Assembly: GCF_013315695.1 (NCBI RefSeq)
Contig: NZ_CP054353.1
DNA: 64,000 bases
Source: Escherichia coli
Lineage (GTDB): Bacteria > Pseudomonadota > Gammaproteobacteria > Enterobacterales > Enterobacteriaceae
Reading direction: 5' to 3' (one strand)
Position numbers and translations under genes: made by a program. Each line of letters starts with the position of its first letter. Positions within the stretch are counted from its first letter, which is position 1. The notes below the pieces were generated by a model that saw nothing but the letters and a program-made list of their open reading frames with translations, did no database searches and had not been told where the DNA came from. Shown one piece after another: positions 45,621 through 60,446 of the stretch.

Positions 45621-47252
45621 GTGTTAACGCTGCTTCACCTGCTTTCTGCCGTCGCCCTGCTGGTCTGGGGGACTCATATTGTTCGAACCGGCGTAATGCG
45701 CGTCTTCGGCGCGCGTCTGCGTACTGTTCTTAGCCGAAGCGTCGAAAAGAAGCCGCTCGCCTTTTGCGCGGGGATAGGCGTTACCGCACTGGTGCAGAGC
45801 AGTAATGCCACCACCATGCTGGTGACCTCGTTTGTCGCTCAGGATCTGGTAGCCCTCGCACCGGCTCTGGTGATTGTGCTGGGTGCAGATGTCGGGACGG
45901 CGCTAATGGCGCGTATTCTCACCTTCGATTTATCCTGGCTGTCACCGTTACTTATTTTTATCGGCGTGATTTTTTTCCTCGGACGCAAACAGTCACGCGC
46001 CGGGCAACTGGGCCGCGTCGGTATTGGTCTTGGGCTGATTTTGCTGGCGCTGGAGTTGATTGTGCAGGCCGTAACGCCGATCACCCAGGCAAACGGCGTT
46101 CAGGTGATCTTTGCCTCGCTGACCGGCGATATTCTGCTGGATGCGCTGATTGGCGCGATGTTCGCCATTATCAGCTACTCCAGCCTTGCTGCTGTACTGC
46201 TGACCGCGACTCTGACCGCCGCAGGCATTATCTCCTTCCCCGTGGCGCTCTGTCTGGTGATTGGTGCTAACCTCGGTTCCGGTCTGCTGGCGATGCTCAA
46301 CAACAGTGCCGCCAATGCCGCAGCCCGCCGTGTCGCGCTGGGTAGCCTGCTGTTTAAGCTGGTGGGTAGCCTGATTATCCTGCCGTTTGTCCATTTGCTG
46401 GCAGAGACAATGGGGAAGTTGCCACTGCCAAAAGCGGAACTGGTGATCTATTTCCACGTCTTCTACAACCTTGTACGCTGCCTGGTCATGCTGCCATTTG
46501 TTGACCCGATGGCACGGTTTTGCAAAACGATTATTCGCGATGAACCGGAACTGGATACCCAGCTACGACCCAAACATCTGGATGTCAGCGCGCTGGATAC
46601 GCCCACGCTTGCTCTGGCGAACGCCGCGCGCGAAACCCTGCGCATTGGCGACGCCATGGAACAGATGATGGAAGGGTTGAATAAAGTGATGCACGGCGAG
46701 CCACGGCAGGAGAAAGAGCTGCGTAAGCTGGCAGATGATATCAACGTTCTCTACACCGCCATTAAGCTGTATCTGGCGCGAATGCCAAAAGAGGAACTGG
46801 CAGAAGAAGAGTCGCGCCGCTGGGCGGAGATCATCGAAATGTCGCTCAACCTTGAACAGGCCTCCGATATCGTCGAGCGCATGGGCAGCGAAATTGCCGA
46901 CAAATCGCTGGCTGCAAGGCGAGCATTTTCGCTTGATGGTTTGAAGGAACTGGATGCGCTCTATGAGCAATTGCTCAGTAATTTAAAACTGGCAATGTCG
47001 GTTTTCTTCTCTGGCGATGTTACCACCGCCCGTCGTTTGCGCCGTAGCAAACATCGTTTTCGCATTCTTAATCGCCGCTATTCCCATGCCCACGTCGATC
47101 GCCTGCATCAGCAAAACGTGCAAAGCATTGAAACCAGTTCGCTACATTTAGGCTTACTGGGAGATATGCAGCGTCTGAACTCGCTGTTTTGTTCGGTGGC
47201 TTACAGTGTGCTGGAACAGCCGGATGAAGACGAAGGACGGGACGAGTATTAA
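45621..47252 (+). CDS. yjbB: Na/Pi cotransporter family membrane protein YjbB
   Basis: 543 aa polytopic N-terminal half plus PhoU-like C-terminal half; position after metH. Confidence 0.9.
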   Translation: MLTLLHLLSAVALLVWGTHIVRTGVMRVFGARLRTVLSRSVEKKPLAFCAGIGVTALVQSSNATTMLVTSFVAQDLVALAPALVIVLGADVGTALMARILTFDLSWLSPLLIFIGVIFFLGRKQSRAGQLGRVGIGLGLILLALELIVQAVTPITQANGVQVIFASLTGDILLDALIGAMFAIISYSSLAAVLLTATLTAAGIISFPVALCLVIGANLGSGLLAMLNNSAANAAARRVALGSLLFKLVGSLIILPFVHLLAETMGKLPLPKAELVIYFHVFYNLVRCLVMLPFVDPMARFCKTIIRDEPELDTQLRPKHLDVSALDTPTLALANAARETLRIGDAMEQMMEGLNKVMHGEPRQEKELRKLADDINVLYTAIKLYLARMPKEELAEEESRRWAEIIEMSLNLEQASDIVERMGSEIADKSLAARRAFSLDGLKELDALYEQLLSNLKLAMSVFFSGDVTTARRLRRSKHRFRILNRRYSHAHVDRLHQQNVQSIETSSLHLGLLGDMQRLNSLFCSVAYSVLEQPDEDEGRDEY

Positions 47253-47261
47253 TACCGTGAC

Positions 47262-47337
47262 CCTGTAGGCCTGATAAGACGCGTAAAGCGTCGCATCAGG
47301 CACGATGAACAAGATGCCGGATCATGCATCCGGCAAT
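47262..47337. repeat. REP element pair
   Basis: CTGTAGGCCTGATAAGACGCGTAAAGCGTCGCATCAGGCA and GATGCCGGATCATGCATCCGGCAA between yjbB and pepE. Confidence 0.8.
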
Positions 47338-47341
47338 TCAT

Positions 47342-48031
47342 TTAAAAACGGTGACCCGCTTCCAGCGGAACCGCTTCTTCACCAGCCTTAAATACATAAG
47401 TGGTGTTCGGGCCACCCAGCGTAGCGTGACCTTTACTTACTGTGATCCAGTTACCTTCCGGCAGACCAATAATCGTCAGTTCTGGCGCGACGACCAGCAG
47501 TTCGCGAATACGCTGCTCACGCGTTTCACCTTTATGGCCTTCCGGCAGCGCGTTGGTGAAGTGCGGGTTGATTTGCAACGGGAACAGATTCAGCGCATCG
47601 AAACCTTGCGGATCGACAATCGGCATATCGTTGGTGGTACGAATGGTTGGGCAAGCAAGGTTAGCGCCTGCGCTCCAGCCAATATACAGCGCGCCACGTT
47701 TCACCACGTCAGTAATTGGTGCCAGCAGCCCGCGCTCGCGGCACTGTTTCAGCAACTGGAAAGTATTACCGCCGCCGACAATCACGATCTCAGCATTTTC
47801 AATCGCGGCAACGGGATCGACAACGCTATGAATACCGGTGACAGAAACACCCAGCGGAGCGAGAACCGCAGCCGTTTTCGCTGTGTAATCATCCCAGGTC
47901 TGCGTTACGCCAGCGAAAGGAATAAATACCGCTGAGCGGCGACCCTGCAACTGTTCAGCAATCAGCGGCAGCGCGTGTTCCAGCCAGGCTTTACCCGGCA
48001 GCGTCGAGTTACTCAATAAAAGCAGTTCCAT
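47342..48031 (-). CDS. pepE: Dipeptidase E (alpha-aspartyl dipeptidase)
   Basis: 229 aa [57 protein letters not shown]. Confidence 0.95.
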
Positions 48032-48153
48032 TACTTCTCCGGTTAGTAAGAAATCACGGGAGCCATGCTACCACTGTGATTTTAACCGCTTACTGACATG
48101 GCTCACGATGTTGCGCATTGCTTCTGGCGTGGCAAACAAGGCGCTGATGTTTC

Positions 48154-48966
48154 TTATCCTTCTCGTGCAAATTGTGCCGCCTCAGCAATCAGTTGCGCAT
48201 CAGGCCGTACGCCGGTATACATTGCGAACTGCTCGACGGCCTGTAAAGCAATCACCTCCGCACCGCTAATCGTCTGCTTATCAAGCCGTTGCGCCAGGCG
48301 AATGAGCGGCGTTTCCGGCGGCAAGGCCACGACATCAAAAACGACGCTTGCCGTTGAGACCATCGCTTCGCTGAAGGCCAGCTCATGGCTCTCTTTACCG
48401 CCGCTCATGCCAACGGGCGTCACGTTGACCAGAATGTCGCAGGCGATGCCTTCCGGCTGCGGTTGCCACTGAAACCCATACTGCTTCGCCAGCGCCGGGC
48501 CGCTCTCGCGGTTGCGGGCGGCAATGATAACATCCGTAAACCCCGCGTCGCGAAAGGCGGCAATCACCGCTTTGCCCATGCCGCCACTGCCGCGAATCAT
48601 CACTCGCGTGGTGGTATTGAGCTGGTGGTGGGTAATCAGGCTTTTCACCGCGATATAGTCGGTGTTAAACCCGGTCAGCCTGCCGTCGTCATTCACGATG
48701 GTATTCACGGAATCAATGACCTTCGCCGACGGATCGATCGCGTCGAGAAAAGGCATGCAGCTTTCTTTAAACGGCATCGACACAGCGCAACCGCGAATAC
48801 CCAACGCGCGAACCCCTTTCACCGCCGCTGCAATATCCTGGGTGGTGAACGCTTTATAGATGAAATTCAGCCCCAGCTTTTCATAAAGATAATTGTGAAA
48901 ACGCGTGCCGAAGTTACCGGGGCGGCCGGCCAGCGACATGCAGAGTTGAGTATCGCGATTAATCAT
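48154..48966 (-). CDS. AroE/YdiB-family (shikimate dehydrogenase-like) NAD(P) oxidoreductase, substrate unknown
   Basis: 271 aa from ATG(rc) 48964-48966: MINRDTQLCMSLAGRPGNFGTRFHNYLYEKLGLNFIYKAF...NTDYIA...IRGSGGMGKAV; N-terminal substrate domain, NTD motif and Gly-rich Rossmann loop laid out as in AroE; start overlaps the sorE stop (ATGATTAA). Confidence 0.75.
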   Translation of the reverse strand: MINRDTQLCMSLAGRPGNFGTRFHNYLYEKLGLNFIYKAFTTQDIAAAVKGVRALGIRGCAVSMPFKESCMPFLDAIDPSAKVIDSVNTIVNDDGRLTGFNTDYIAVKSLITHHQLNTTTRVMIRGSGGMGKAVIAAFRDAGFTDVIIAARNRESGPALAKQYGFQWQPQPEGIACDILVNVTPVGMSGGKESHELAFSEAMVSTASVVFDVVALPPETPLIRLAQRLDKQTISGAEVIALQAVEQFAMYTGVRPDAQLIAEAAQFAREG

Positions 48967-50188
48967 GGGAAATCGCCTCTGCATGGGCGAGCAGGTACTG
49001 CTCCGCCTCGCCAGACCAGACTCCCTGATGACGCGCCAGAATCGCCGCCAGTTCTTCATCCTGAATCTGCGTGAGTGATGTCAGCGGCAGATATTTCCCG
49101 GTATACACCAGTTTTTTCCCGCCGCCGACGGCAGGCAATTCAAGCGTGGTTTCGCCCGCGGCATTCAGCCCAAGAATATGTGTTACCACTTTTGCGGCCT
49201 GCACTTTTTTCTCTTCAATCAATTTGACCGCTGCGCGCATGTCGTCGGTATTGCCGCCTGACGTGCCTACGTAGTGGGTAAATGCATAATGCACATCGTA
49301 GAAATTAATTGGCGCGCTGAAGTGCTTATCCTGCGGTCCGGCGAAGAAATTCAGGCAACCATCTGTCGCCAGCAAGGAAGAGGCGAGAGTCACCAGTCCT
49401 TCATTAGGCACAAAGACGAAAATATCATCGAAGCCGTGACCGCCACTCAGCGCCATTAACGTATCAAATGCTGCATCGGTGGCATTGAGATAATGAATCA
49501 GTGTTTGCGGTTCTGATGGATAGTGCTTGCGCGCATAACTCAATTTGTCGTTGTCGGTATCGGTAATGACGAGCAGCGAAGGGTTAACGGGTCCATGTAG
49601 CGCATAATCAATCGCCAACAGTCCCATTGGTCCGGTGCCGCCGAGGATCAGCGTGCGCCCTTGCGGGCGAATCCCCATCGTGTGGTTATAACTACCTTCC
49701 TGAAGATGATAGTTGGCGTTGAACGCGCCAATCACGCAGGAAAGCGGTTCAACCAGCGAGCCTTCAAAATAGGTTTCGCCGTCGTATGCCAGCAGGCAAT
49801 CTTGTTCCATGACCTCGTTGGGAATAACCACATGCGTCGCTTCGCCGCCTACCCACGGGAAGGAGTAGCCGGGGCAGTCCGGGCGGTCGGGGAGTTGCAG
49901 GTTGGCCTGAATCACATAACGCTGACCCGGCTGGAATTTGTGCTGCCACTTTTTACCCACGGCCAGAATATCGCCGCAAAATTCGTGGCCGATGATGATG
50001 GGATTGGTCGCCACATCGTCGGGTACTTTTTTATGGTTTTCCCCCAGATTGGCCTCTTTCCAGGAAGAGAGGCACAGGCTGTCAGTGACCACCGTCGCGA
50101 GGATTTCATCCTCCTGCATTTCAGGAAGGTCAAAGGTTTCCAGACGCAGGTCACGTTTGCCATAAAGACGCAGAGCTGTTGTTTTCAT
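48959..50188 (-). CDS. sorE: Sorbose-1-phosphate reductase (Zn-dependent MDR dehydrogenase)
   Basis: About 409 aa (MKTTALRLYGKRDLRLETFDL...), zinc-ADH fold motifs GHEFCGDI and LILGGTGPMG; last gene of the sor-type PTS cluster; start ambiguous (track ORF 48959..50200). Confidence 0.75.
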   Translation of the reverse strand: MKTTALRLYGKRDLRLETFDLPEMQEDEILATVVTDSLCLSSWKEANLGENHKKVPDDVATNPIIIGHEFCGDILAVGKKWQHKFQPGQRYVIQANLQLPDRPDCPGYSFPWVGGEATHVVIPNEVMEQDCLLAYDGETYFEGSLVEPLSCVIGAFNANYHLQEGSYNHTMGIRPQGRTLILGGTGPMGLLAIDYALHGPVNPSLLVITDTDNDKLSYARKHYPSEPQTLIHYLNATDAAFDTLMALSGGHGFDDIFVFVPNEGLVTLASSLLATDGCLNFFAGPQDKHFSAPINFYDVHYAFTHYVGTSGGNTDDMRAAVKLIEEKKVQAAKVVTHILGLNAAGETTLELPAVGGGKKLVYTGKYLPLTSLTQIQDEELAAILARHQGVWSGEAEQYLLAHAEAISHD

Positions 50189-50239
50189 AAACCACCTCAT
50201 GTTGAGCGATGACCCCGGCAGTCGTGCCGGGGCGAAGAA

Positions 50240-51064
50240 TCAGGACAGGAAGCCCAGCGCATTACCGATAATCCCTAAACCAAACAGGGCGAAAATCAGC
50301 CATACCGGGTTAATTTTTTTGTTGAGCAGACGTACCATCAGCAGCGTCAAACCGAGCGCCAGCAATCCAGGGCAAAGCTGGTCGAGAATGTTCTGTACGG
50401 TCATAGTGACGGTGGCACCATCGGCGGCAGGCGTTTGTGAAACCACTAACGGCACGTTGATCGATGTCCATTTGGTCACCAGTACGCCCATTACAAACAG
50501 CCCGAGAATCGACGCGCCTTCGGTCAGTTTTTGCAGCAAATTACCGCCCATATCGCTGACGATATTCACCCCTTTACGAAAGCCCAGTTGCAGCCCATAC
50601 CATTTCATTGCCAGACGTACTGCATTGAAAATAAAGAAGAACAGCAGGGGGCCGAGAATGTTGCCCGAAAGTGCCAGAGATGCGCCGAGCGCGGCGGTAA
50701 TCGGGCGCAGCGTTCCCCAGACCAGTGGATCGCCAACACCTGCCAACGGTCCCATCAGGCCGACTTTGATGCCGTTAATGGTACCGTCATCAATTTCCGC
50801 GCCGTTGGCTCGCGCCTCTTCCATGGCGGCAGTGACGCCGATGACCGGGCCACATACGGCTGGCGTGGTATTGAAGAACACCAGGTGTCGCCTGAGCGCC
50901 GCAACTTGATCCTCTTTTAATGGGTAAAGTCGTTTGATGGCGGGGATCATGTCGTAGCAAAAACCCAGCCCGTGAATACGTTCAAAGTTAAAGGATGCCT
51001 GTTGCAGGTTGGAGCGCAGAAACATGCTCACCAGATCGCTGCGTGTAATTTTTCTCTGTTCCAT
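50240..51064 (-). CDS. sorM: PTS sorbose (mannose-family) EIID component
   Basis: About 274 aa (MEQRKITRSDLVSMFLRSNLQQASFNFERIHGLGFCY), characteristic EIID-Man N-terminus; alternative start 51094. Confidence 0.8.
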   Translation of the reverse strand: MEQRKITRSDLVSMFLRSNLQQASFNFERIHGLGFCYDMIPAIKRLYPLKEDQVAALRRHLVFFNTTPAVCGPVIGVTAAMEEARANGAEIDDGTINGIKVGLMGPLAGVGDPLVWGTLRPITAALGASLALSGNILGPLLFFFIFNAVRLAMKWYGLQLGFRKGVNIVSDMGGNLLQKLTEGASILGLFVMGVLVTKWTSINVPLVVSQTPAADGATVTMTVQNILDQLCPGLLALGLTLLMVRLLNKKINPVWLIFALFGLGIIGNALGFLS

Positions 51065-51074
51065 GATGGCTCCG

Positions 51075-51872
51075 TTAATCATCAAGTTGGTCAAGGGCGG
51101 TGATAGTGGTGGTCTGGGGATGTGGTTCAGCTTTACGCCACTGTGGATTTAACTGGATGTAGAGCAGGGCCATGATCACGCCGACGCCACCGAACGCCAG
51201 CAGACTGAGATCGAGGTAGCCACCTGCGAGGAAACCGAGGAAAAAGAAAGGCATCAAATATTTCACGCCCATCATGCGAAGCACCATGGCGTAACCGACC
51301 ACCACGATAAAACCGCCAGCAATCTGCAGCCCACGGGTCACAAATTCGGGAATGGCGCTCAGCATATTGCTCACCATATCAGCGCTGACGAACAGCGAGA
51401 CAATCAGTGCCGGAATAGCAACGCGCAGTGCCTGCACGCCAAGCGCGGAGACATGCAGAATATCGAGAGTGCGAAACCGTGCTTCTTCCGCTGCTTTATC
51501 CGCCGCGTGCTGGAACACTACGGTGATGGTACGGGCAAACACCGTCAGCACCTGGCCTGCCGCAGCCACAGGCAACGCGATGGCGATTCCGGTGGCGATG
51601 CTTTGCTGACCAACGATAACCAGAATGGCGGAGATTATGCTGGCGAGTGCAGAATCCGGAGATTGCGCCGCGCCGACGTTCATCCAGCCGAGAGCTATCA
51701 ATTCCAGCGTACCACCGAGCATAATTCCGGTTTTTAAATCACCGAGAATTAAACCAATCACCGTACAGGCAATTAACGGACGATGAGTCTGAAATTCATC
51801 CAGCACGCTGCCCATTCCGGCAATACAGGAAAAAAGAAATATAGCAATAATTTGTAGGGTACTTATTTCCAT
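51075..51872 (-). CDS. sorA: PTS sorbose EIIC component
   Basis: 265 aa polytopic membrane protein MEISTLQIIAIFLFSCIAGMGSVLDEFQTHRPLIACTVIGLILGDLKTGIMLGGTLELIALGW (EIIC-Man family). Confidence 0.8.
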   Translation of the reverse strand: MEISTLQIIAIFLFSCIAGMGSVLDEFQTHRPLIACTVIGLILGDLKTGIMLGGTLELIALGWMNVGAAQSPDSALASIISAILVIVGQQSIATGIAIALPVAAAGQVLTVFARTITVVFQHAADKAAEEARFRTLDILHVSALGVQALRVAIPALIVSLFVSADMVSNMLSAIPEFVTRGLQIAGGFIVVVGYAMVLRMMGVKYLMPFFFLGFLAGGYLDLSLLAFGGVGVIMALLYIQLNPQWRKAEPHPQTTTITALDQLDD

Positions 51873-51937
51873 GATTTGTCACCTTTTAAGTGTCGTCATC
51901 CCTGCCTGTTAAAGCATATGTACACAGGCGCTATTAT

Positions 51938-52432
51938 TTAATTTGCGATTAACTGTTCGTTTATTTTGTCGATAATATTGATTGAGGGATCTGACGCTAC
52001 GACGCGTAAATCCAGTATGACGCCAAGATTATTTAACTCATGAAATGCGTTAATATCATCGTCATCTAATGAAACTGCTTTGGTTAACTGTTTCTTACCA
52101 GGACGCCAGGCCATACCGCCAATATTCAGGGTACCTATTTTTACCCCCTGGCGAACCATTGCTAAGGCATCTTGTGGGCGAGTGAAAAGATAAAAAACGG
52201 TTTCGTCCTGATATTGCGGGTTGTGATAAACCGCGACGGCTTTTTCAATATTGACCACGTTAACCTTCATTCCCGGTGGCGCAGCCTGACGCAATAATGT
52301 CCGGCGAACTTCATCGTTATAAACTTCGTCATTGCAGATAATAATGCGTTGGGCGTTAGCCACTTTAGACCAGACGGTAGTGACCTGGCCGTGGATCAGG
52401 CGGTCATCAATGCGGGCGAGCGTAATGTTCAT
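51938..52432 (-). CDS. sorB: PTS sorbose EIIB component
   Basis: 164 aa MNITLARIDDRLIHGQVTTVWSK, EIIB-Man phosphohistidine motif. Confidence 0.82.
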   Translation of the reverse strand: MNITLARIDDRLIHGQVTTVWSKVANAQRIIICNDEVYNDEVRRTLLRQAAPPGMKVNVVNIEKAVAVYHNPQYQDETVFYLFTRPQDALAMVRQGVKIGTLNIGGMAWRPGKKQLTKAVSLDDDDINAFHELNNLGVILDLRVVASDPSINIIDKINEQLIAN

Positions 52433-52839
52433 CAGAAATCCTCCTCCGCTGTTGCCACCTGTCTCCAGACGACGCAGATTTGCTTTGCGATTTGCGTCAG
52501 GTGTTCACACAGTTCATCAATATTCATGCTGTCCTGGTTATCAACCAGTTCGAGCGCCAGCGGCAGAGAAAGGCCGCTGATTACCCGCAGACGAGGATTG
52601 CGCATCGCAAGCATCGCTGCCGCATTCCACGGGCTGCCGCACTGTAAATCCACGGCAATCAGCCACTCATCTTGATTGTGAATGCTTGCTAACTTTTCCA
52701 GCTTTGCTACGATGTCTCCGGCGTTCTCGCCGGGCACAAATTCAACGGCCTCGACCCTGGCATCGCCGTACACCATCTGAACCGATTCCAGCATGGCGCA
52801 AGCTAATTTGCCATGGGCGCAAAAAATGGCATTGACCAT
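52432..52839 (-). CDS. sorF: PTS sorbose EIIA component
   Basis: 135 aa MVNAIFCAHGKLACAMLESVQMVYGD, EIIA-Man with conserved His near N-terminus. Confidence 0.82.
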   Translation of the reverse strand: MVNAIFCAHGKLACAMLESVQMVYGDARVEAVEFVPGENAGDIVAKLEKLASIHNQDEWLIAVDLQCGSPWNAAAMLAMRNPRLRVISGLSLPLALELVDNQDSMNIDELCEHLTQIAKQICVVWRQVATAEEDF

Positions 52840-52848
52840 AAAGCCTCC

Positions 52849-53655
52849 TTAGCCGCGCGTTTTGCCGCCCGCAATGTTAGTGGTTACTCCGGTGATATAG
52901 CTGGCGCGTTCAGACAGCAGATAACAAACAAAATCAGCCACTTCTGCTAATCTTCCGGCGCGCCCAATAGGAATGGCGTTTTTGGTATAGCCTTCACGCA
53001 GCTGCTCGACGGTGATATTGCGCGTCCACGCCAGCGCTTCTTCATATTCCGGCGTGCGCAGTCCTGTTTTTTCCAGAATCCCCGGCGCGATACCGACCAC
53101 ACGGATACCGTGCTTACCCAGTTCTTTCGACCAGGAGCGAGTGAAGCTATTGAGCGCAGCTTTAGTGGCGGCGTAGCAGCTCTGGCCTTCTGAGCCTTCC
53201 AGCCCACTTTCTGAGGAAACATTCACAATCACGCCATCGTGTTGTTTGACCATCTGTCGCGCCACCGCCTGCGACATCAGAAAAACGCCTTTCTGGTTGA
53301 TATTGACCATTTTTTCGAATGCAGCTTCGTTGAGTTCATACTGCCCGGCAGGCGCTTTCTCATCGACCAGCAGACGCGGGAAATTGACCCCGGCGTTATT
53401 GACCAGACCGTCGATGCGACCAAAACGCTGGATAATTTCTGCTACCGTATGATTTACCTCTTTGGCGCTGGAAATATCGGTCGGCCAAAACTGATAGCCT
53501 TTATGACCTTCATATTGTCCATCGCCACCGTGAATATCGACCATCTGTACATTCGCGCCTTGTGCTAATAATTCATCCACAATCGCCAGACCAATGCCGG
53601 ATGCGCCACCGGTGACAATAATGATTTTATCCTGCAAATTTAACCACGTTTGCAT
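52849..53655 (-). CDS. sorD: Short-chain dehydrogenase (D-glucitol-6-phosphate dehydrogenase type)
   Basis: 268 aa MQTWLNLQDKIIIVTGGASGIGLAIV... (TGxxxGIG), SDR catalytic YAATK. Confidence 0.8.
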   Translation of the reverse strand: MQTWLNLQDKIIIVTGGASGIGLAIVDELLAQGANVQMVDIHGGDGQYEGHKGYQFWPTDISSAKEVNHTVAEIIQRFGRIDGLVNNAGVNFPRLLVDEKAPAGQYELNEAAFEKMVNINQKGVFLMSQAVARQMVKQHDGVIVNVSSESGLEGSEGQSCYAATKAALNSFTRSWSKELGKHGIRVVGIAPGILEKTGLRTPEYEEALAWTRNITVEQLREGYTKNAIPIGRAGRLAEVADFVCYLLSERASYITGVTTNIAGGKTRG

Positions 53656-53724
53656 AACAGACTCCTGATTTTAGATAATAGGGACCCGCCGTAATTTTTA
53701 TTACGGTAAACATCGGGAAGATTT

Positions 53725-54672
53725 TTATTTCAGTAATAGTTCAGCTGTGCTGCTATTCGTTACCAGACAATTAATATATTTTCCACGCAGTGCACCAACA
53801 ATTCCGCTGTATTTTTCTTCACTCATGGCAATGCCAATGGAATATCGTGCCTGCTTTAATTTATTCATTTCGATAGAGAGTGTTTTTTCGCTCATATTCG
53901 TTTCAACCATTGCGCCGTGAATATCAAAAAAGCGCGAGCAAATATCGCCAGCAACCTGGCGGGCATTCAGGTCGTCACTCTCTTCACCACCATAAAACGC
54001 ATGCCAGTTAGCGCCGTCGCGAATGGCCGGTGAGCCAATTCCCACCAGGGCGACATCCAGATTATCCCAGTAGGCAGAGATGGTTTTAAAGTGCTGAGAC
54101 TGCATGATCCCATTACGAATTAATGGGTTATCCAGCAGAGCCGGAAAATCCGCGAGATGCGATTCCCCTTTCAACTTCGCTGCCGCGCTGTAGGTTAATG
54201 TGTTTACATGATAGCGGCTTTCGAGTTTACCGGACGGTCCGCCAATAATTGGTACGCAGATTAACTGCCGCGATTGCCCCGCCTGCGGCAAGTTTTCAAC
54301 CAGTGCGCTCACCGCGCGGCCCCAGGAAAAACCAACAATATCGCCAGGTTCCAGCAAGCGATCCAGCAGTTGCGCGCCGTGTAACCCCATCATCGCCAGT
54401 TGAGTCTCTTCATCCTCATCATTTCCCGACACCACCACAACGTCTTTCAGGCCAAACTTTTGCTTCAGTTGCTGCTCCAGCCAGAGATTTTCGTTGTAGT
54501 CATAGTTGATGGCGATGGTGACAATTCCCTGATCGCGGCCTCGTTTAAGCAAGCGGCTGATGGTGGTGCGGTAAATACCCAGTTCGCGCGCGATTTGCGC
54601 CTGCGTCATATCCTGTTCGTAATAGAGTTGGGCAATCTTCACAATCAAACGGATATCGTCACTGTTTTCCAT
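53725..54672 (-). CDS. sorC: SorC-family transcriptional regulator of the sorbose operon
   Basis: 315 aa from ATG(rc) 54670-54672 (MENSDDIRLIVKIAQLYYEQDMTQAQIARELGIYRTTISRLLKRGRDQGIV), N-terminal HTH plus sugar-phosphate binding domain; first gene of the cluster. Confidence 0.8.
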   Translation of the reverse strand: MENSDDIRLIVKIAQLYYEQDMTQAQIARELGIYRTTISRLLKRGRDQGIVTIAINYDYNENLWLEQQLKQKFGLKDVVVVSGNDEDEETQLAMMGLHGAQLLDRLLEPGDIVGFSWGRAVSALVENLPQAGQSRQLICVPIIGGPSGKLESRYHVNTLTYSAAAKLKGESHLADFPALLDNPLIRNGIMQSQHFKTISAYWDNLDVALVGIGSPAIRDGANWHAFYGGEESDDLNARQVAGDICSRFFDIHGAMVETNMSEKTLSIEMNKLKQARYSIGIAMSEEKYSGIVGALRGKYINCLVTNSSTAELLLK

Positions 54673-55019
54673 TGCCGCCTCCTGGTTCTGCACATTTGTG
54701 CAAATACGCTTTCTCACCGCTTGATCTGATATAACCCCATCATGATGGCCTTTCAAAGCGATTTTTCACTCTTTGCATGGGGGGAAATAGCGCTTTCTCT
54801 TGCACATTTGTTTCTCTGCGTAGTAGTCATCAGCACAGGTGTGCAGCGATTCGTAATATGTTGATTATCCTTATTTTGCCAGGCAAATTTGCATCGTACT
54901 TCCGGAGACACTTTTGTGATAAAAGGCGTGGCAGATCACATTTAATTTCGACGTTGCCGCATAACCCTGTTTTTCCCCGCTAAGAGGTACGGTATATTCC
55001 GCGTTTTACAGGAGAATTT

Positions 55020-55892
55020 ATGCTGCCCGACTCATCAGTCCGTTTAAATAAATACATCAGCGAAAGCGGAATTTGCTCACGCCGCGAAGCGGATCGCTAT
55101 ATCGAGCAAGGCAATGTGTTCCTTAATGGCAAGCGAGCCACCATTGGCGATCAGGTGAAACCCGGCGACGTTGTGAAAGTAAACGGTCAGTTGATTGAGC
55201 CTCGGGAAGCCGAAGATTTGGTACTTATCGCCCTGAACAAGCCCGTCGGTATTGTCAGCACCACCGAAGATGGCGAGCGCGATAACATTGTCGATTTCGT
55301 TAACCACAGCAAACGCGTGTTCCCGATTGGCCGCCTGGATAAAGACTCCCAGGGGCTGATTTTCCTCACCAATCACGGCGATCTGGTGAATAAGATCCTC
55401 CGTGCGGGTAACGATCATGAGAAAGAGTATTTGGTGACGGTTGATAAACCGATTACCGATGAATTTATTCGTGGTATGGGGGCGGGAGTGCCGATCCTCG
55501 GGACGGTGACGAAAAAGTGCAAAGTCAAAAAAGAAGCGCCGTTTGTCTTCCGCATTACCCTGGTGCAGGGGCTGAACCGTCAGATCCGTCGCATGTGCGA
55601 GCACTTTGGTTACGAAGTGAAAAAGCTGGAACGTACGCGCATTATGAACGTCAGTTTAAGCGGCATTCCGCTGGGTGAGTGGCGCGATTTAACCGACGAT
55701 GAGTTAATCGACCTCTTTAAGCTCATCGAAAATTCCTCTTCCGAGGCAAAACCTAAAGCGAAGGCCAAACCGAAAACGGTAGGCATCAAACGTCCAGTCG
55801 TCAAGATGGAAAAAACGGCGGAAAAAGGCGGTCGCCCGGCGTCCAACGGTAAGCGTTTTACCTCGCCGGGGCGAAAAAAGAAGGGACGTTAA
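55020..55892 (+). CDS. rluF: 23S rRNA pseudouridine synthase RluF
   Basis: 290 aa; S4 domain N-terminus and pseudouridine synthase motif [21 protein letters not shown]; Lys-rich tail. Confidence 0.94.
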
Positions 55893-56165
55893 TCAGCGCC
55901 TGCCGCGCGTCGACGTATTTGCTGACCAGCTAAATGACGCCTCAGGATCCGGTTTATAAGCCTGCTTTTTCTTCAATTGGCGGGCTTTTTTCGCTTCAGC
56001 CTCACGCTCGACCATTAATTTATCGATGTACTCTTTCTTAATGCTGTTGGTTTCGGAGTTGGTCAGTACGCGACCATGCGCAATCCGCGCCCGATCCAGC
56101 AATGTTTTAAGTTCACGCTGCTCGCGTTCAGTCATCTCTTTTTGGGTAATACGGGGGAGTGCCAT
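55893..56165 (-). CDS. yjbD: DUF3811 family protein YjbD
   Basis: 90 aa MALPRITQKEMTEREQRELKTLLDRARIAHGRVLTNSETNSIKKEYIDKLMVEREAEAKKARQLKKK. Confidence 0.85.
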   Translation of the reverse strand: MALPRITQKEMTEREQRELKTLLDRARIAHGRVLTNSETNSIKKEYIDKLMVEREAEAKKARQLKKKQAYKPDPEASFSWSANTSTRGRR

Positions 56166-56378
56166 GATGGTGCCCTCAGTGAGCCAGAGAGTTCAGTGTA
56201 CGGGAATTCGTTTGCGAGCAGAACTGATAATATTCCTTTGTTCCCTTCTTAAATATCTATCTTTCTTGATAATTGACGATAAATACAGATAAAAATTTAG
56301 CAAAAAGTTTTCCCCCTACAAACAACAGTAATTCATTAACTCTTTATTTTTCATTTGGTTAATGGTTTTTCTCAATTC

Positions 56379-56394
56379 TGGCACGCTTCTCGCA
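56379..56394 (+). promoter_or_regulatory. Putative sigma54 (-24/-12) promoter upstream of the SPFH gene
   Basis: TGGCACGCTTCTCGCA: matches TGGCACG-N4-TTGCW with one mismatch (C for T at -14); GG and GC separated by 10 nt; about 300 nt upstream of the SPFH start. Confidence 0.45.
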
Positions 56395-56693
56395 ATAACA
56401 CTTTTGCGTTGATACTGAATTTCAAAGGGGATTAAACCCCGTCGGCACACCAGGAACGGCCAGGCTGTTTTCCGGGCGTGTTCCGTCAGCCTTTGACGCT
56501 AATTACGGGTTCGATTCCCGAATTCATTCCTGAAATGAATACTGGTTGTAACTTATTAAATAAAAAATGGGGGATTGCGCAGTCAGCGATCCCCGATAAC
56601 GTCGCCGATAAAGACGCCGGGATACAGGCAAAAGGGAATTCCCCTGTCTCTTCGTGTCTGCTTCCGCGACGGCTGTTAAGCAAGGAATAGATA

Positions 56694-57821
56694 ATGATTA
56701 AGAAAATAAGCGTAAGAAAAGATCAGCTGGCATTACTCTCCAGAAATGGCGATTACTACAAAGTGCTGCATGCAGGCGAGCATCTTTTACCCTGGTTAAA
56801 TACGCCAGAAGTCTTGCTGATTACGCTCGATGGCAGCGAAGTTCCCGACGTGCTGGCGGATTATTTGCGCCGCTTTCAGCCTGATTGGGTGGAAAGATAT
56901 TGCGTGGTGGCCGACTTGTCGGAGACTGAAGCCGGGGCGTTGTATATGGACGGTATTTTGCTGGAGATCCTGCCGCCATCAACGCGTCGTTTGTACTGGC
57001 GTGTAGAGGATGATTTGACGCTGGTGCGGATGAATACGCAGCAAGTCCAGGTTCAAACGGAGGTGATGAATGCGGTATTGCAGCCACGGCGCAAAGGGAC
57101 TGTTAAAGGCCGCGATGCGATACTGACGGTGCAGGTTCCGGCCTGGCACGTAGGTGTACTGAAAATCGATGGTGAAACGCAGGCGCTGTTACCGCCGGGG
57201 CTGACTGCGTACTGGAAAATTAACCATCTGGTTGAAGCTGAAGTGGTTGACACCCGCTTGCAGGTACTGGAAGTCAGTGGGCAAGAAATCTTAACGAAAG
57301 ATAAGGTCAATCTGCGGATTAATCTCGCCGCTAACTAGCGCTACAGCGACGTGTTATTGGCATTTAGTCAGTTAACGAAGCCGATTGATCATTTGTATCG
57401 GGAATTGCAATTTGCACTGCGTGAAGCGGTAGGTACGCGTACGCTGGATGAGTTGCTGGAAGATAAACAAGTCATTGATGACGTTGTCAGCGAACAGGTG
57501 AAATCGCGTATGTTGCCATTTGGTATGGAGATTGCTTCATTAGGGGTGAAAGATATCGTCCTGCCTGGCGATATGAAAAATATCCTTGCGCAGCTGGTTG
57601 AGGCGGAGAAATCCGCGCAGGCCAATGTGATTCGTCGACGTGAAGAAACGGCAGCGACGCGTTCGTTACTCAATACCGCTAAAGTCATGGAAAACAACCC
57701 GGTGGCGTTACGCTTAAAAGAACTGGAAACGCTGGAGAGAGTGGCTGAGCGGATCGATAACATCTCTGTATTTGGTGGTCTGGATCAGGTTCTGCACGGG
57801 TTAGTGAATATCAAAGGATGA
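56694..57821 (+). pseudogene. SPFH/band-7 domain protein, interrupted by in-frame TAG at 57339-57341
   Basis: Track ORFs 56694..57338 and 57351..57821 are in the same frame, separated only by the TAG; the joined product (...TKDKVNLRINLAAN*RYSDVLLAFSQ...LLEDKQVIDDVVSEQVKSRMLPFGMEIASLGVKDIVLPGDMKNILAQLVEAEKSAQANVIRRREE) has a stomatin/prohibitin-type SPFH domain spanning the stop. Confidence 0.7.
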
Positions 57822-57933
57822 GTCAAATGCCATTAAATGGAGTCAGTGCTGCGATGCGCGAACGGGTATCGCAGCAGTTAAAAGAAATAGAACGTCGCTA
57901 TGGCGTGAAAGTGCTGTACGCCTGCGAATCAGG

Positions 57934-57945
57934 CAGCCGCGGCTG
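57934..57945. repeat. IS4 target-site duplication, left copy
   Basis: CAGCCGCGGCTG immediately 5' of the IS4 terminus TAATGCC. Confidence 0.85.
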
Positions 57946-59371
57946 TAATGCCAGTCAGTTAAGCAACTGACTGGCTCTTTTTCGGGGCTGTGGGGTATTT
58001 CCAGGGCCTCTCCTTTACCACTCTCGGGAAGGCCCTTTCCCTTCTTGTCGGTAATTTCACAAGTTGTCCCATACTTGCAAGATCGCGCATCAGCTCCGGT
58101 ATACGTCCCGGTGAAGCGCCCTGCAATGTCATCAGCATTCTCATCACCATTCCGCATGATTCTGAGAAACTCAGTTGATTCGGCCAGTAACCTTTCAGAT
58201 GTTCCGCCATTTTAATCATCTGATATCTCACCAGATTATAAGCCAGTAAGACACCCCACAGCTCTTGCTCCACAAGCTCCGGTTTTTTACTTCTCAGCGT
58301 CAGCCTGCTCAGTTGCATCGTCTGTTTTATCTCCCTGTATCCCAGTTCGATTTCCCAGCGATGACTGTACAGATCCGCCATTTCTCCTCCGGGGAAGCGC
58401 ATGGCGTCCGTCATCGACGTCAGCAGATGGCAGACTTTTCCTTTGCGCGTCACGGTCAGCAGGCGGGCTGTCACTTCATTTCCCAGTCCCGGCCACTTTT
58501 TTCGTGCCTGCGGGCTGGTTTTCAGCTTCACCAGATGATCGCCTTTACCCAGTTTTCTGATCTCTTCATATTGCGCTCCCTTTCTGAGAGGTATCATCCA
58601 GTGGCGGTGTTCTCCCGCCAGGCTCCAGGCATTTAACAGTCCCAGTGAGTAATAACCTTTATCCATTAACGTCAGAGTGTTATCGCCGGTTTGTTCTATA
58701 AGTTGCTCAGCAAGCTCATTTTCGCTGTTCTTCATCGTGCCGAAGGCTGCAGCCGTCAGCAGATGGCTGGTCAGTTCCATCTGGCAGACCATTTTGACCT
58801 GCGGGTAGAGCGCCGGGTTCCCGGCATGTGTCTGGCGGGGGAAGGCTGCATCGTTCTCTGGTGTATCCGGTGTGCGCCAGAACACACCATCGATGGCCAG
58901 CAGGGTCAGGCCGCACCAGTGCGGATGCGGCGTGGCGTTATGCCAGAGCTGCGCTGTTTTCGTGAACACGCGGCGGACAGCCTCACTTCCCAGGCGCTGG
59001 CGGGCCTGAATAACGGCACTGGGGGCAACGAAGGGGCGATTGCCCGGCAGCATGATGTCCAGGCGATTCACAATCTGGTGAAGAGGTTCTTTACGCTCAA
59101 GCGCCATGCCAACAATACACCAGACCATCATTTCGAGGGGAAGACGGCGCTTGCGTAGCGTTACAGTACCTGATTCGGCAAGGCAACGAGAGATGAGTTC
59201 GGGGTCGAGGTAATCCCCCAGAGAAGTCAGTGGGTTACGCAGAGAATCGTAACGGGATACCAGATCAAGAGCCTGTCCAATGTGCATAAAAAAATCCGGA
59301 AACAAGTGAGCGTTTCCGGATTCTTACACAGCCACTGGATCGGTCAACTGATCCTTAACTGATCGGCATTA
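57946..59371 (-). mobile_element. IS4 insertion sequence (complete, 1426 bp)
   Basis: Terminal inverted repeats TAATGCCAGTCAGTTAAG... and ...CTTAACTGATCGGCATTA; single 442 aa DDE transposase; flanked by a 12 bp direct repeat. Confidence 0.92.
57959..59287 (-). CDS. insG: IS4 transposase
   Basis: 442 aa [63 protein letters not shown]... (IS4 family DDE transposase). Confidence 0.92.
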
Positions 59372-59383
59372 CAGCCGCGGCTG
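59372..59383. repeat. IS4 target-site duplication, right copy
   Basis: CAGCCGCGGCTG immediately 3' of the IS4 terminus. Confidence 0.85.
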
Positions 59384-60170
59384 GGGATTTGCCTCGCCCG
59401 ATAGCGACTACGATGTACGGTTTTTGTATGTCCATCCGCTGGAATGGTATCTGCGTGTAGAGTCACCGCGCGATGTTATCGAGCTGCCCATCGACGACGA
59501 ATTAGATGTTTCCGGTTGGGAGTGGCGTAAGGCGCTGGGATTATTGAAAGGCGCGAATCCGACGCTGATAGAATGGCTGGATTCTCCGGTGGTCTATCAA
59601 CAAGATGAAGAAACGATAACGGCGCTTAAGGCAATGGTCCCAATGTGGTTTTCTTCGTTGCGTGCACGCTGGCATTACTATTCGATGGCGCAGAAAAACT
59701 TCCGCGGCTATTTGCAGGGCGATGAAGTTCGACTGAAAAAATACTTTTACGTGCTGCGCCCGCTGCTGGCCGTGCGCTGGGTCGAAGCGGGTAAAGGCGT
59801 GCCGCCAATGCGCTTTGCTGAGTTACTGGCAGGAAGCGAGCTTGATGCGCCGTTACGCGAAGAGATTGACGAACTGCTGGAGCGTAAACAGCGAGCGGGG
59901 GAGGCGGAATATGGTCCGCGCCGTCCTTTGTTACATGCGTTTATTCGCGCGGAGCTGGCGCGTGGGGAAATTCCACCGATTTTACCGGACAGTCGAGATG
60001 GAGATGTTCGGGAGCTAGATAATTTGCTGTATCAAACGGTAATGCGCCGGGCATAAAGCCCGGCGTGATTTATTGCTGGTATTGCCAACTGCTGACTAAA
60101 GCGTACAAGTGATTTGGTGATGCTGCCAACTTACTGATTTAGTGTATGATGGTGTTTTTGAGGTGCTCCA

Positions 60171-60446
60171 GTGGCTTCTGTTTCTATCAGCTGTCCCTCC
60201 TGTTCAGCTACTGACGGGGTGGTGCGTAACGGCAAAAGCACCGCCGGACATCAGCGCTATCTCTGCTCTCACTGCCGTAAAACATGGCAACTGCAGTTCA
60301 CTTACACCGCTTCTCAACCCGGTACGCACCAGAAAATCATTGATATGGCCATGAATGGCGTTGGATGCCGGGCAACAGCCCGCATTATGGGCGTTGGCCT
60401 CAACACGATTTTACGTCACTTAAAAAACTCAGGCCGCAGTCGGTAA
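60171..60446 (+). CDS. insA: IS1 InsA
   Basis: 91 aa [43 protein letters not shown]... zinc-finger/HTH protein of IS1. Confidence 0.93.

What the first reader, a model, noticed from the sequence alone, without database searches (positions are those of the whole stretch)
48154..54756. L-sorbose PTS operon (sorCDFBAME) inserted between pepE and rluF
Seven co-oriented minus-strand genes form a SorC-type regulator, an SDR dehydrogenase, a four-component mannose-family PTS (EIIA, EIIB, EIIC, EIID) and a zinc-dependent reductase. This is the gene order and domain content of the described sorbose operon, which K-12 lacks. It confers an accessory carbon-source phenotype and marks this genome as non-K-12.
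Basis: partly seen in the sequence, partly recalled or inferred. Interest (0 to 1): 0.35.

Follow-up and report, generated by a model that had tools for sequence, protein, structure and literature searches.

The report
Sorbose operon with an eighth gene
This is the well-known L-sorbose sugar-uptake operon that about half of E. coli strains carry and K-12 lacks. Here it is in its less common eight-gene form, which still has a shikimate-dehydrogenase-like gene that most E. coli have deleted.

Summary
The interval holds the L-sorbose PTS operon on the minus strand between pepE and rluF, in the order sorC-D-F-B-A-M-E. All genes are intact, and K-12 lacks them.

Three corrections apply:
- The interval holds eight genes, not seven. 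The last 813 bp (48154-48966) encode SdhL, a shikimate-dehydrogenase-like protein 67% identical to H. influenzae HI0607. Its start overlaps the sorE stop by 8 bp.
- sorC starts at 54672, not 54756. The extension covers a conserved operator-like palindrome.
- "Inserted" is probably the wrong direction. The rluF-sorCDFBAME-sdhL arrangement sits at this locus in at least 8 enterobacterial genera.

Of 5426 complete E. coli genomes, 2865 carry sor. Only 176 keep sdhL, and 2574 share one 701-bp deletion scar in it. Kluyvera and Pluralibacter did the reverse: they lost the sor genes and kept sdhL.

Published omics for an ST648 strain show sdhL induced about 64-fold by L-sorbose, together with the sor genes. 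SdhL's substrate is unknown, and its shikimate-carboxylate ligands are replaced.

The finding is ordinary and of low interest. The small new point is that the seven-gene operon of most E. coli is a derived form of an eight-gene enterobacterial locus.

The parts
53725..54672 (-). sorC: SorC-family regulator, 315 aa (HTH plus PF04198 sugar-binding domain)
   Evidence: The RefSeq start is 54672, with AGGAGG 7 nt upstream.
54689..54702 (.). Perfect palindrome TGCACAAATGTGCA, 30 nt upstream of the sorC ATG.
   Evidence: It is conserved at -30/-31 in 17 loci, identical in 13 of them; Serratia and Kluyvera differ by one base. Its function as an operator is inferred, not shown.
54832..54845 (.). Second, imperfect palindrome (TGCACACCTGTGCT on the minus strand) at -173. 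A related half-site lies at 54800-54811.
   Evidence: It was found at -173/-174 in 10 of the 17 loci and at -131 in Kluyvera.
52849..53655 (-). sorD: SDR, D-glucitol (sorbitol)-6-phosphate dehydrogenase, 268 aa
   Evidence: NF004817, 501 bits against a cut-off of 304. PF00106.
52432..52839 (-). sorF: EIIA of the mannose family, 135 aa
   Evidence: TIGR00824, 143.8 bits against a cut-off of 98.35. Sources name it PTS sorbose transporter subunit IIA.
51938..52432 (-). sorB: EIIB, 164 aa. Its start overlaps the sorF stop by 1 nt.
   Evidence: TIGR00854, 223 bits against a cut-off of 163.6. PF03830.
51075..51872 (-). sorA: EIIC, 265 aa
   Evidence: TIGR00822, 422 bits against a cut-off of 339.85. 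PF03609.
50240..51064 (-). sorM: EIID, 274 aa
   Evidence: TIGR00828, 473 bits against a cut-off of 292.75. PF03613.
48959..50188 (-). sorE: Zn-ADH-type L-sorbose-1-phosphate reductase, 409 aa
   Evidence: PF08240 plus PF00107. PGAP names the gene sorE. Homologues carry the name L-sorbose 1-phosphate reductase.
48154..48966 (-). sdhL: shikimate-dehydrogenase-like protein of the SdhL/HI0607 class, 270 aa. It is the eighth cistron, and its ATG overlaps the sorE stop (ATGATTAA).
   Evidence: The overlap is conserved in 30 of 32 related sor+ loci. dN/dS is 0.05-0.09. It is induced by L-sorbose in an ST648 strain.
48208..48908 (.). The 701-bp internal part of sdhL that is deleted in most sor+ E. 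coli. The window has it intact.
   Evidence: The same deletion junction is present in 2574 of 5426 genomes.
48128..54984 (.). The segment that K-12 lacks. K-12 has 80 unrelated bp in its place.
47342..48031 (-). pepE, the downstream flank, co-oriented with the operon. No convincing terminator lies between sdhL and pepE.
55020..55892 (+). rluF, the upstream flank, divergent from sorC across a 347-bp spacer

Best explanation
The interval is the chromosomal L-sorbose utilisation operon of E. coli, in an eight-gene form: sorC-sorD-sorF-sorB-sorA-sorM-sorE-sdhL.

**Pathway (established for Klebsiella and E. coli).** The four-subunit mannose-family PTS (SorF, SorB, SorA, SorM) takes up L-sorbose as L-sorbose-1-phosphate. 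SorE reduces this to D-glucitol-6-phosphate. SorD oxidises that to fructose-6-phosphate. SorC regulates the operon.

**Regulation (inferred).** SorC probably acts through the conserved TGCACAAATGTGCA palindromes upstream of its own gene.

**The eighth gene.** It encodes an SdhL-class NADP-type dehydrogenase. It is translationally coupled to sorE and induced with the operon. It is not needed for growth on sorbose, and its physiological substrate is unknown and probably not shikimate.

**History.** The eight-gene arrangement beside rluF is the older state for this locus in Enterobacteriaceae. Most E. coli later deleted 701 bp of sdhL, and the K-12 lineage lost the whole operon.
For: **Operon identity**
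- Domain content and order.
- RefSeq annotation of the identical sequence.
- SorE homologues named L-sorbose 1-phosphate reductase.
- CFT073 orthologues 82-97% similar to characterised K. pneumoniae Sor proteins (PMC2831201).
- Growth, knock-out and knock-in evidence in E. coli ST131 and ST648 (PMC12817954).
- The map position next to metH and iclR.

**sdhL as a member of the operon**
- The 8-bp ATGATTAA overlap is conserved in 30 of 32 related sor+ loci from 8 or more genera, and also in Klebsiella.
- In the ST648 strain PBIO730, L-sorbose raises sdhL by log2FC +6.01 (RNA) and +6.77 (protein). The sor genes rise by about +5.6 at the RNA level.

**Function retained**
- dN/dS is 0.05-0.09, like the sor genes.
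- 83 of 270 residues are invariant in 80 orthologues, including K67 and D103.

**Ancestry and loss**
- The same synteny is found in Pseudocitrobacter, E. albertii, E. whittamii, Citrobacter, Raoultella, Klebsiella and a Serratia sp..
- Most E. coli keep the 5' 58 nt and 3' 54 nt of sdhL around one shared junction: 2574 genomes against 176 with the intact gene.
- Kluyvera and Pluralibacter keep sdhL with a remnant of the sorE 3' end in front of it.

**Not an AroE**
- The score is below the TIGR00507 cut-off.
- N18, G20 and A214 replace the AroE Ser, Ser and Tyr.
Against: - No experiment was done on this strain. Growth on sorbose is inferred from near-identical operons.
- Outside Enterobacteriaceae, sdhL has no link to sugar genes. 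It follows secB-gpsA-cysE in Pasteurellaceae. sor operons in Yersinia, E. fergusonii and Enterococcus lack it. The association could therefore be a positional accident with passive co-transcription.
- The direction of the K-12 difference cannot be read from the junctions, because K-12 has 80 bp of unrelated filler. Recombination between lineages is evident, so a purely vertical history is not proven.
- The operator role of the palindromes is inferred only.
- The consensus promoter and terminator scans were uninformative.
Confidence: 0.88

Rival explanations
1. The canonical seven-gene sorCDFBAME operon is the whole functional unit. On this view sdhL is an unrelated, lineage-specific (ST648/phylogroup F) insertion next to it. 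This is how the one paper that mentions it treats it.
For: - Only 176 of 5426 complete E. coli genomes have sdhL.
- PMC12817954 calls it unique to ST648 among six STs and speaks of ST-specific insertions.
- ST131, which lacks sdhL, grows on sorbose.
- The seven-gene order exists without sdhL in Enterococcus and E. fergusonii.
Against: - The seven-gene E. coli genomes carry both ends of sdhL around a 701-bp deletion, so they lost it.
- sdhL follows sorE with the same 8-bp overlap in 8 or more genera, including Klebsiella.
- It is co-induced by sorbose at the RNA and protein level.
Confidence: 0.04
2. The cluster is a mannose-family PTS for another substrate (mannose, fructoselysine, N-acetylgalactosamine or similar), not sorbose.
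For: - The EII HMMs that pass their cut-offs are generic mannose/fructose/sorbose subfamily models.
- SorM also passes the "PTS mannose transporter IID" subfamily model (414.8 bits against a cut-off of 365).
Against: - The Aga equivalogs and ManX IIAB fall below their cut-offs.
- The linked SorE, SorD and SorC are the sorbose-pathway set.
- Orthologous E. coli operons are induced by L-sorbose and affect growth on it; sorE loss abolishes the response.
Confidence: 0.02
3. The operon was recently acquired by horizontal transfer into the pepE-rluF spacer of this lineage. This is "inserted" in the literal sense.
For: - K-12 and most phylogroup A/B1 strains lack it.
- The K-12 spacer has 80 bp with no counterpart in the sor+ allele.
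- Divergence between the window and an ST131-type strain is mosaic, which shows recombination at the locus.
Against: - There are no mobile-element genes, tRNA or flanking direct repeats at the junctions.
- GC content is about 0.53, like the surroundings.
- The operon occupies the same position next to rluF in Escherichia species, Citrobacter, Klebsiella, Raoultella and Pseudocitrobacter, and remnants sit there in Kluyvera and Pluralibacter.
- dS of the sor genes against Citrobacter and Klebsiella is in the range of the flanking pepE and rluF.
- The operon is present in more than 86% of genomes of every phylogroup except A and B1.
Confidence: 0.1
4. SdhL is a genuine, if slow, shikimate/dehydroshikimate oxidoreductase. 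On this view it ties sorbose availability to aromatic-amino-acid metabolism, acting as an AroE back-up or a route into shikimate catabolism.
For: - It belongs to the shikimate dehydrogenase family and keeps the catalytic Lys67/Asp103 pair plus N88 and Q242.
- From memory of Singh et al., J Biol Chem 2005 (not retrievable here): HI0607 oxidises shikimate with NADP, at about 1000-fold lower turnover than AroE.
- aroL and the trp genes rise with sorbose in PMC12817954.
Against: - The three positions that in AroE bind the C1 carboxylate (Ser, Ser, Tyr; residue roles from memory) are Asn, Gly and Ala in all or nearly all of 80 SdhL orthologues. Carboxylate contacts are described as critical for substrate recognition (PMC7144000).
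- The score is below the AroE equivalog cut-off (164.6 bits against 200.2).
- aroL and the trp genes also rise in ST131, which has no sdhL.
- Other family members act on ketohexoses, for example 5-ketofructose reductase (7cok; PMC7954740).
Confidence: 0.25

Closest known systems
L-sorbose PTS operon sorCDFBAME of Klebsiella pneumoniae and E. coli (Lengeler/Wehmeier work; E. coli CFT073 c4981-c4987; the ST131/ST648 operons of PMC12817954)
   Same: - Same seven genes in the same order and orientation, with the same domain families.
- Same chromosomal neighbourhood (metH-iclR side, between pepE and rluF).
- 98-100% protein identity to an E. coli strain with the seven-gene form, and 74-99% to other genera.
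   Different: - It carries an eighth, translationally coupled gene, sdhL, after sorE.
- The seven-gene name does not include sdhL, although modern Klebsiella genomes also have it.
- Most E. coli have only a deletion remnant.
SdhL / SDH-L class of the shikimate dehydrogenase family (H. influenzae HI0607, PDB 1npy)
   Same: - 67% identity over the full length (E = 2e-112).
- Passes NF009202.
- Same catalytic Lys67/Asp103.
- Same Asn-Phe-Gly and Ala substitutions at the AroE carboxylate-binding positions.
   Different: - The genomic context differs. In Pasteurellaceae the gene follows secB-gpsA-cysE. Here it is the last cistron of a sorbose-induced sugar operon.
- No physiological substrate is known for either protein.
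AroE and YdiB shikimate/quinate dehydrogenases
   Same: Same two-domain fold family and the same catalytic dyad.
   Different: - Below the AroE and YdiB equivalog cut-offs.
- Shorter N-terminal substrate loop, with SxS replaced by NxG, and the Tyr replaced by Ala.
- Not located with aromatic-pathway genes.
5-ketofructose reductases of the shikimate dehydrogenase family (Gluconobacter KFR, PDB 7cok; Tatumella TM-KFR)
   Same: They show that members of this family can be dedicated ketohexose reductases. TM-KFR has 1428 U/mg on 5-ketofructose and gives D-fructose (PMC7954740). 5-ketofructose and L-sorbose are chemically adjacent.
   Different: - The relationship is only distant (E = 2e-16 to 7cok, weaker than to archaeal AroE at 8e-33).
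- No evidence here that SdhL uses 5-ketofructose.
Other mannose-family PTS systems of E. coli (ManXYZ, AgaBCD/AgaVWEF)
   Same: Same four-domain EIIA/B/C/D architecture and the same Pfam families.
   Different: - Equivalog scores are below the cut-offs.
- EIIA and EIIB are separate polypeptides.
- The system is linked to the SorE/SorD/SorC catabolic set.

Membership tests
L-sorbose (sor) operon, Klebsiella/E. coli type | Co-oriented gene order: regulator, SDR, EIIA, EIIB, EIIC, EIID, Zn-reductase | tested here: met
   The same order is found in 30 or more related loci.
L-sorbose (sor) operon, Klebsiella/E. coli type | SorC-family regulator (N-terminal HTH plus PF04198 sugar-binding domain) | tested here: met
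   PF04198, 270.6 bits.
L-sorbose (sor) operon, Klebsiella/E. coli type | Sorbitol (glucitol)-6-phosphate dehydrogenase of the SDR type (SorD) | tested here: met
   NF004817, 501 bits against a cut-off of 304.
L-sorbose (sor) operon, Klebsiella/E. coli type | Four separate mannose-family EII polypeptides | tested here: met
   TIGR00824, TIGR00854, TIGR00822 and TIGR00828 are all above their cut-offs. The phosphorylatable His motifs (CAHGK in SorF, LIHGQ in SorB) are visible in the translations; the assignment of those sites is from general knowledge.
L-sorbose (sor) operon, Klebsiella/E. coli type | [quoted passage not shown] | tested here: met
   PGAP names it sorE. It is 86% identical to a Klebsiella cluster of that name. 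CFT073 SorE is 91% similar to K. pneumoniae SorE. No enzyme assay was done.
L-sorbose (sor) operon, Klebsiella/E. coli type | Induction by L-sorbose and growth on it | not testable with these tools
   Shown for E. coli ST131 and ST648 strains in PMC12817954, not for this strain.
SdhL (HI0607) class of shikimate dehydrogenase-like proteins | Full-length similarity to HI0607 and the family HMM above its cut-off | tested here: met
   1npy E = 2e-112, residues 1-268. NF009202, 467.5 bits against a cut-off of 306.
SdhL (HI0607) class of shikimate dehydrogenase-like proteins | Catalytic Lys67/Asp103 pair | tested here: met
   K67 and D103 are invariant in 80 orthologues and align to HI0607.
SdhL (HI0607) class of shikimate dehydrogenase-like proteins | Weak NADP-dependent shikimate oxidation and no quinate activity | not testable with these tools
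   Recalled from Singh et al. 2005. The paper is not held in the library.
AroE (biosynthetic shikimate dehydrogenase) | AroE equivalog score, plus the Ser-x-Ser and Tyr ligands for the shikimate carboxylate | tested here: not met
   TIGR00507, 164.6 bits against a cut-off of 200.2. The corresponding residues are N18, G20 and A214. The roles of these residues in AroE are from memory.
N-acetylgalactosamine/galactosamine or mannose PTS (Aga, Man) | Equivalog HMM above its cut-off | tested here: not met
   AgaF 71.5 against 130, AgaW 147 against 300, AgaE 167 against 500, ManX IIAB 62.8 and 210.8 against 400.

The most novel reading that the evidence does not exclude
SdhL may be a functional eighth member of the enterobacterial sorbose regulon whose real substrate is not shikimate. 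Candidates are a sorbose-related ketose or polyol, such as 5-keto-D-fructose, or another compound that co-occurs with sorbose.

The evidence that leaves this open:
- SdhL is SorC-controlled in context and co-induced by sorbose.
- It is kept under purifying selection even where the sorbose PTS has been lost (Kluyvera keeps only the sorC-like gene plus sdhL).
- It lacks the shikimate-carboxylate ligands.

If true, this would give a physiological role to an enzyme class (HI0607/SdhL) that has had a crystal structure but no known function since 2005. It would also mean that the textbook seven-gene sor operon is incomplete.
Probability: 0.25. Interest if true: 0.45.

Novelty: already known. Interest (0 to 1): 0.2.

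Why it matters
The operon is a known accessory carbon-source trait. It has recently been linked to fitness and virulence of high-risk E. coli lineages (PMC12817954, PMC13410766). Finding it here adds no new biology.

The modest added value lies in three points:
- The seven-gene form in most E. coli is a decayed version of an eight-gene locus shared across Enterobacteriaceae, not the complete unit.
- Intact sdhL is a sharper lineage marker than sor itself (3% of complete genomes against 53%).
- The conserved coupling to sorE, the sorbose induction, and the reciprocal losses give a concrete, testable lead to the unknown function of the SdhL class. The reciprocal losses are E. coli dropping sdhL while Kluyvera and Pluralibacter dropped sor.

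Tried and rejected
- **Promoter and terminator scan of 47900-55100.** It found 3 promoter-like sites against 7.3 expected, and 11 terminator-like sites against 9.0 expected. This was uninformative.
- **Folding the sdhL-pepE spacer.** The z-score was -0.7, so no convincing terminator.
- **Rfam on 47000-57000.** Nothing lies inside the operon. The only result was a sub-threshold REP/naRNA4 match at 47268-47335.
- **Homology search for the 80-bp K-12 filler.** It matched nothing in the window or in the related loci checked in the output, so the junctions do not show whether the K-12 difference is a gain or a loss.
- **sdhL context outside Enterobacteriaceae as a clue to function.**
  - In Pasteurellaceae the context is the housekeeping secB-gpsA-cysE cluster.
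  - In Gilliamella, Lautropia and Neisseria the contexts are variable or monocistronic.
  - None of these links sdhL to sugar genes.
- **Tried to retrieve the HI0607 (JBC 2005) and Gluconobacter KFR (J Bacteriol 2021) papers.** Neither is held. Statements about HI0607 kinetics and AroE ligand residues therefore rest on memory and are marked as such.
- **A foreign origin for the window's sdhL.** I considered this because the remnant in seven-gene strains is about 10% diverged. A sliding comparison showed similar 6-7% patches elsewhere in the operon, so no such claim is made.
- **Residue-level comparison with 5-ketofructose reductase.** It was not possible, because no tool returned the sequence.

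Full report
**1. What is in the interval**

ORF listing of 46000-57500 shows an unbroken run of minus-strand ORFs between pepE (47342-48031) and the divergent rluF (55020-55892).

NCBIfam and Pfam scans assign them as follows.

| Gene | Coordinates | Assignment |
|---|---|---|
| sorC | 53725-54672 | SorC-type regulator, HTH plus PF04198 |
| sorD | 52849-53655 | SDR passing the sorbitol-6-phosphate dehydrogenase model NF004817 (501 bits, cut-off 304) |
| sorF | 52432-52839 | EIIA, mannose family, above TIGRFAM cut-off |
| sorB | 51938-52432 | EIIB, mannose family, above TIGRFAM cut-off |
| sorA | 51075-51872 | EIIC, mannose family, above TIGRFAM cut-off |
| sorM | 50240-51064 | EIID, mannose family, above TIGRFAM cut-off |
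| sorE | 48959-50188 | Zn-ADH-type protein |

A RefSeq chromosome that is 100% identical over 8.65 kb annotates exactly these eight CDSs, none flagged as a pseudogene. It names the reductase sorE, L-sorbose 1-phosphate reductase.

Eight genes occupy the stated coordinates, and the low coordinate is the stop codon of the unmentioned one. The high coordinate (54756) is the TTG of the longest ORF. The annotated ATG at 54672 has an AGGAGG 7 nt upstream, and the 84-nt extension contains a conserved palindrome (see section 5).

**2. Is it the sorbose operon?**

The evidence says yes.
- The 120 best SorE homologues listed (63-100% identical) that carry a source name are called L-sorbose 1-phosphate reductase or generic zinc-binding or threonine-dehydrogenase-like dehydrogenase. 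They include an 86%-identical Klebsiella cluster of 1551 sequences.
- Orthologous loci in Klebsiella, Raoultella, Citrobacter and others have all seven proteins at 74-99% identity in the same order.
- A published comparison gives 82-97% similarity between the E. coli CFT073 orthologues and the characterised K. pneumoniae proteins listed, SorE to SorD (PMC2831201, Table 3).
- Function has been shown experimentally in E. coli.
  - ST131 and ST648 strains grow on L-sorbose.
  - A sorE deletion abolishes the sorbose growth benefit.
  - A knock-in of the operon lets an ST10 strain grow on it.
  - The sor genes are the most strongly induced genes with L-sorbose (PMC12817954).
The subunits fall below the Aga and ManX equivalog cut-offs.
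- The wider window (rpoBC, thi, rrnE, aceBAK, iclR, metH, yjbB, pepE, sor, rluF, yjbD, lysC, pgi) fits the classical map position of sor near metH and iclR. The map position is from my own recollection of Wehmeier et al. 1992.

**3. Distribution in E. coli**

Counts among 5426 complete E. coli genomes:
- All but one genome match the flanks.
- 2865 (53%) match at least 80% of the sor region.
- The rest, including K-12, have only the flanks.
- PMC12817954 reports the operon in more than 86% of genomes of every phylogroup except A (9.6%) and B1 (12.1%).

K-12's 211-bp spacer matches the window at 48032-48127 and at 54985-55019. It has 80 unrelated bp in between. The K-12/window difference is thus 48128-54984 against 80 bp of filler. 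There are no repeats, tRNA genes or mobile-element genes at the junctions, and no GC anomaly.

**4. The eighth gene**

Identity and class:
- SdhL passes NF009202 (467 bits, cut-off 306).
- It is 67% identical over its full length to H. influenzae HI0607 (PDB 1npy, E = 2e-112).
- Its ATG overlaps the sorE stop codon (ATGATTAA), and a GAGG lies about 10 nt upstream.

Distribution and the deletion scar:
- Only 176 of 5426 genomes (3.2%) have the gene. One of them is IAI39.
- The common seven-gene strains have not simply "never had it". In strain BH100, the pepE-sorE spacer contains the first 58 nt and the last 54 nt of sdhL joined together. This is a 701-bp, frame-breaking deletion of window 48208-48908.
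- A 100-nt probe across that junction matches 2574 genomes at 80% coverage or more. These include O157:H7 and ST131-type strains. One deletion allele therefore accounts for about 90% of sor+ E. coli.

Conservation across genera (scan of one genome per species):
- rluF | sorCDFBAME-sdhL | (...) pepE occurs in Pseudocitrobacter, E. albertii, E. whittamii, a cryptic Escherichia, eight or more Citrobacter, the Klebsiella oxytoca group, Raoultella, two "Enterobacter sp." and a Serratia sp.
- A Klebsiella contig from the K. variicola-named SorE cluster shows the same eight genes.
- The 8-bp overlap is identical in 30 of 32 of these related sor+ loci.
- dN/dS of sdhL against these orthologues is 0.05-0.09, the same range as the sor genes and the flanks.

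Reciprocal losses:
- Six Kluyvera species have only a SorC-like regulator (70% identical) followed 20 nt later by sdhL.
- Two Pluralibacter have rluF followed directly by sdhL.
- Both keep a recognisable piece of the sorE 3' end, including the GAGG, just upstream of sdhL.
- So these lineages deleted the sorbose genes but kept sdhL under purifying selection, while most E. coli did the reverse.

Limits of the linkage:
- E. fergusonii has the seven genes at the same locus without sdhL.
- Yersinia has sorC-FBAM-E elsewhere in its genome.
- Enterococcus faecium has the same seven-gene order without sdhL.
- sdhL is therefore an addition specific to the enterobacterial rluF-linked locus, not part of every sor operon.

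**5. Regulation**

Upstream of sorC lies a perfect palindrome, TGCACAAATGTGCA, at 54689-54702 (-30 from the ATG). A second, imperfect palindrome lies at 54832-54845 (-173).

The -30 palindrome is conserved in 17 loci from ten genera, identical in 13 of them. This includes the Kluyvera sorC-sdhL pair, where one base differs. The distal palindrome recurs at -173/-174 in 10 of the 17 loci, and at -131 in Kluyvera. I infer that these are SorC operators; this is not shown.

Co-expression of sdhL has experimental support. In the supplementary table of PMC12817954, the ST648 strain PBIO730 shows sdhL at log2FC +6.01 (RNA) and +6.77 (protein) with L-sorbose. sorA, sorF, sorB and sorE are at about +5.6 to +5.7 at the RNA level.

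That paper describes sdhL as "immediately upstream" of the operon, unique to ST648 among its six STs, and groups it with the shikimate pathway. The data here place it downstream of sorE, as the last cistron.

**6. What SdhL might do**

Features retained and lost:
- It keeps the family's catalytic Lys67/Asp103 pair, plus N88 and Q242. These are invariant in 80 orthologues.
- Alignments to AroE structures put N18-F19-G20 where AroE has Ser-x-Ser, within a loop two residues shorter.
- They put A214 where AroE has the Tyr of the D-x-x-Y motif.
- From memory, those three AroE residues bind the shikimate C1 carboxylate. [quoted passage not shown]
- SdhL also scores below the AroE equivalog cut-off.
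- From memory of Singh et al. 2005 (not retrievable): HI0607 oxidises shikimate about 1000-fold more slowly than AroE and does not use quinate.

Together these points suggest that shikimate is not the physiological substrate.

There is a precedent for sugar substrates in this family. 5-ketofructose reductases (PDB 7cok; Tatumella KFR, 1428 U/mg, product D-fructose) belong to it, but SdhL is only distantly related to them.

Two observations argue against a sorbose-specific role:
- In Pasteurellaceae, sdhL follows secB-gpsA-cysE.
- ST131 grows on sorbose without it.

My best reading is that SdhL is co-regulated with sorbose catabolism but is functionally separable from it, and that its substrate is unknown.

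**7. Verdict**

The finding is real, correctly identified and already known. The corrections are the gene count (eight, not seven), the sorC and sorE start coordinates, and the likely polarity (ancestral locus lost in K-12, not an insertion). The one modestly new point is that sdhL is the conserved last cistron of the enterobacterial rluF-linked sor locus, and that most E. coli carry its deletion scar. Interest is low.

Noticed in passing
window 56694-60868: A decayed accessory island lies between yjbD and lysC. It is absent from K-12 and BH100. It holds a slipin (Band_7) gene with an internal stop (56694-57821), a nucleotidyltransferase gene split by an IS4 (fragments at 57827-57943 and 59373-60056; IS4 transposase at 57959-59305), and an IS1A (60171-60868). 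E. fergusonii has intact Band_7 and RlaP genes at the same place (L088).
   Followed up: partly
L018-L020, L028, L030, L032 (Kluyvera), around 9020-10813: Six Kluyvera species keep a two-gene unit between rluF and pepE: a SorC-like regulator (70% identical to SorC) followed by sdhL. It has the same upstream palindromes and no PTS or catabolic genes. Both genes are under purifying selection (dN/dS about 0.1 and 0.07).
   Followed up: partly
L002 2312-2492 (E. coli BH100): Seven-gene strains carry about 180 extra bp between pepE and the sdhL remnant. The segment has a GC hairpin and REP-like sequence (GCCGGATA...TATCCGGC). Only sub-threshold Rfam matches were found (ES036, naRNA4). The window lacks this segment.
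   Followed up: partly
window 47268-47335: A REP-like element between yjbB and pepE gives a sub-threshold match to naRNA4 (43.7 bits against a gathering score of 59.5).
   Followed up: no
window 55892/55893; L003 3317-3448: In the window the rluF and yjbD stop codons abut. K-12 has an extra 132 bp between them, a second small indel at this locus.
   Followed up: no
L009 (E. albertii NBRC 107761), 1517-2768: In this locus the reading frame that starts as sorE reaches a stop 489 bp before sdhL instead of overlapping it. This suggests a disrupted sorE in that strain.
   Followed up: no
L087 (Yersinia), L091 (Enterococcus faecium): Yersinia has sorC-sorFBAM-sorE at an unrelated locus, without sorD or sdhL. 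E. faecium has the full sorC-D-F-B-A-M-E order without sdhL. The seven-gene order is therefore much older and more widespread than the link to sdhL.
   Followed up: partly
window 48909-56400 compared with L002: Divergence between the window and the BH100 operon is mosaic, from 0% to about 7% per 300 bp. The peaks are at the sorE 3' end with the sdhL remnant, in sorM, and beyond yjbD. This is consistent with recombination within the locus.
   Followed up: partly
window 53656-53724: The 69-bp sorC-sorD spacer contains a short AT-rich hairpin (CCGTAAT-AAAA-ATTACGG). It might modulate read-through from sorC into the structural genes.
   Followed up: no
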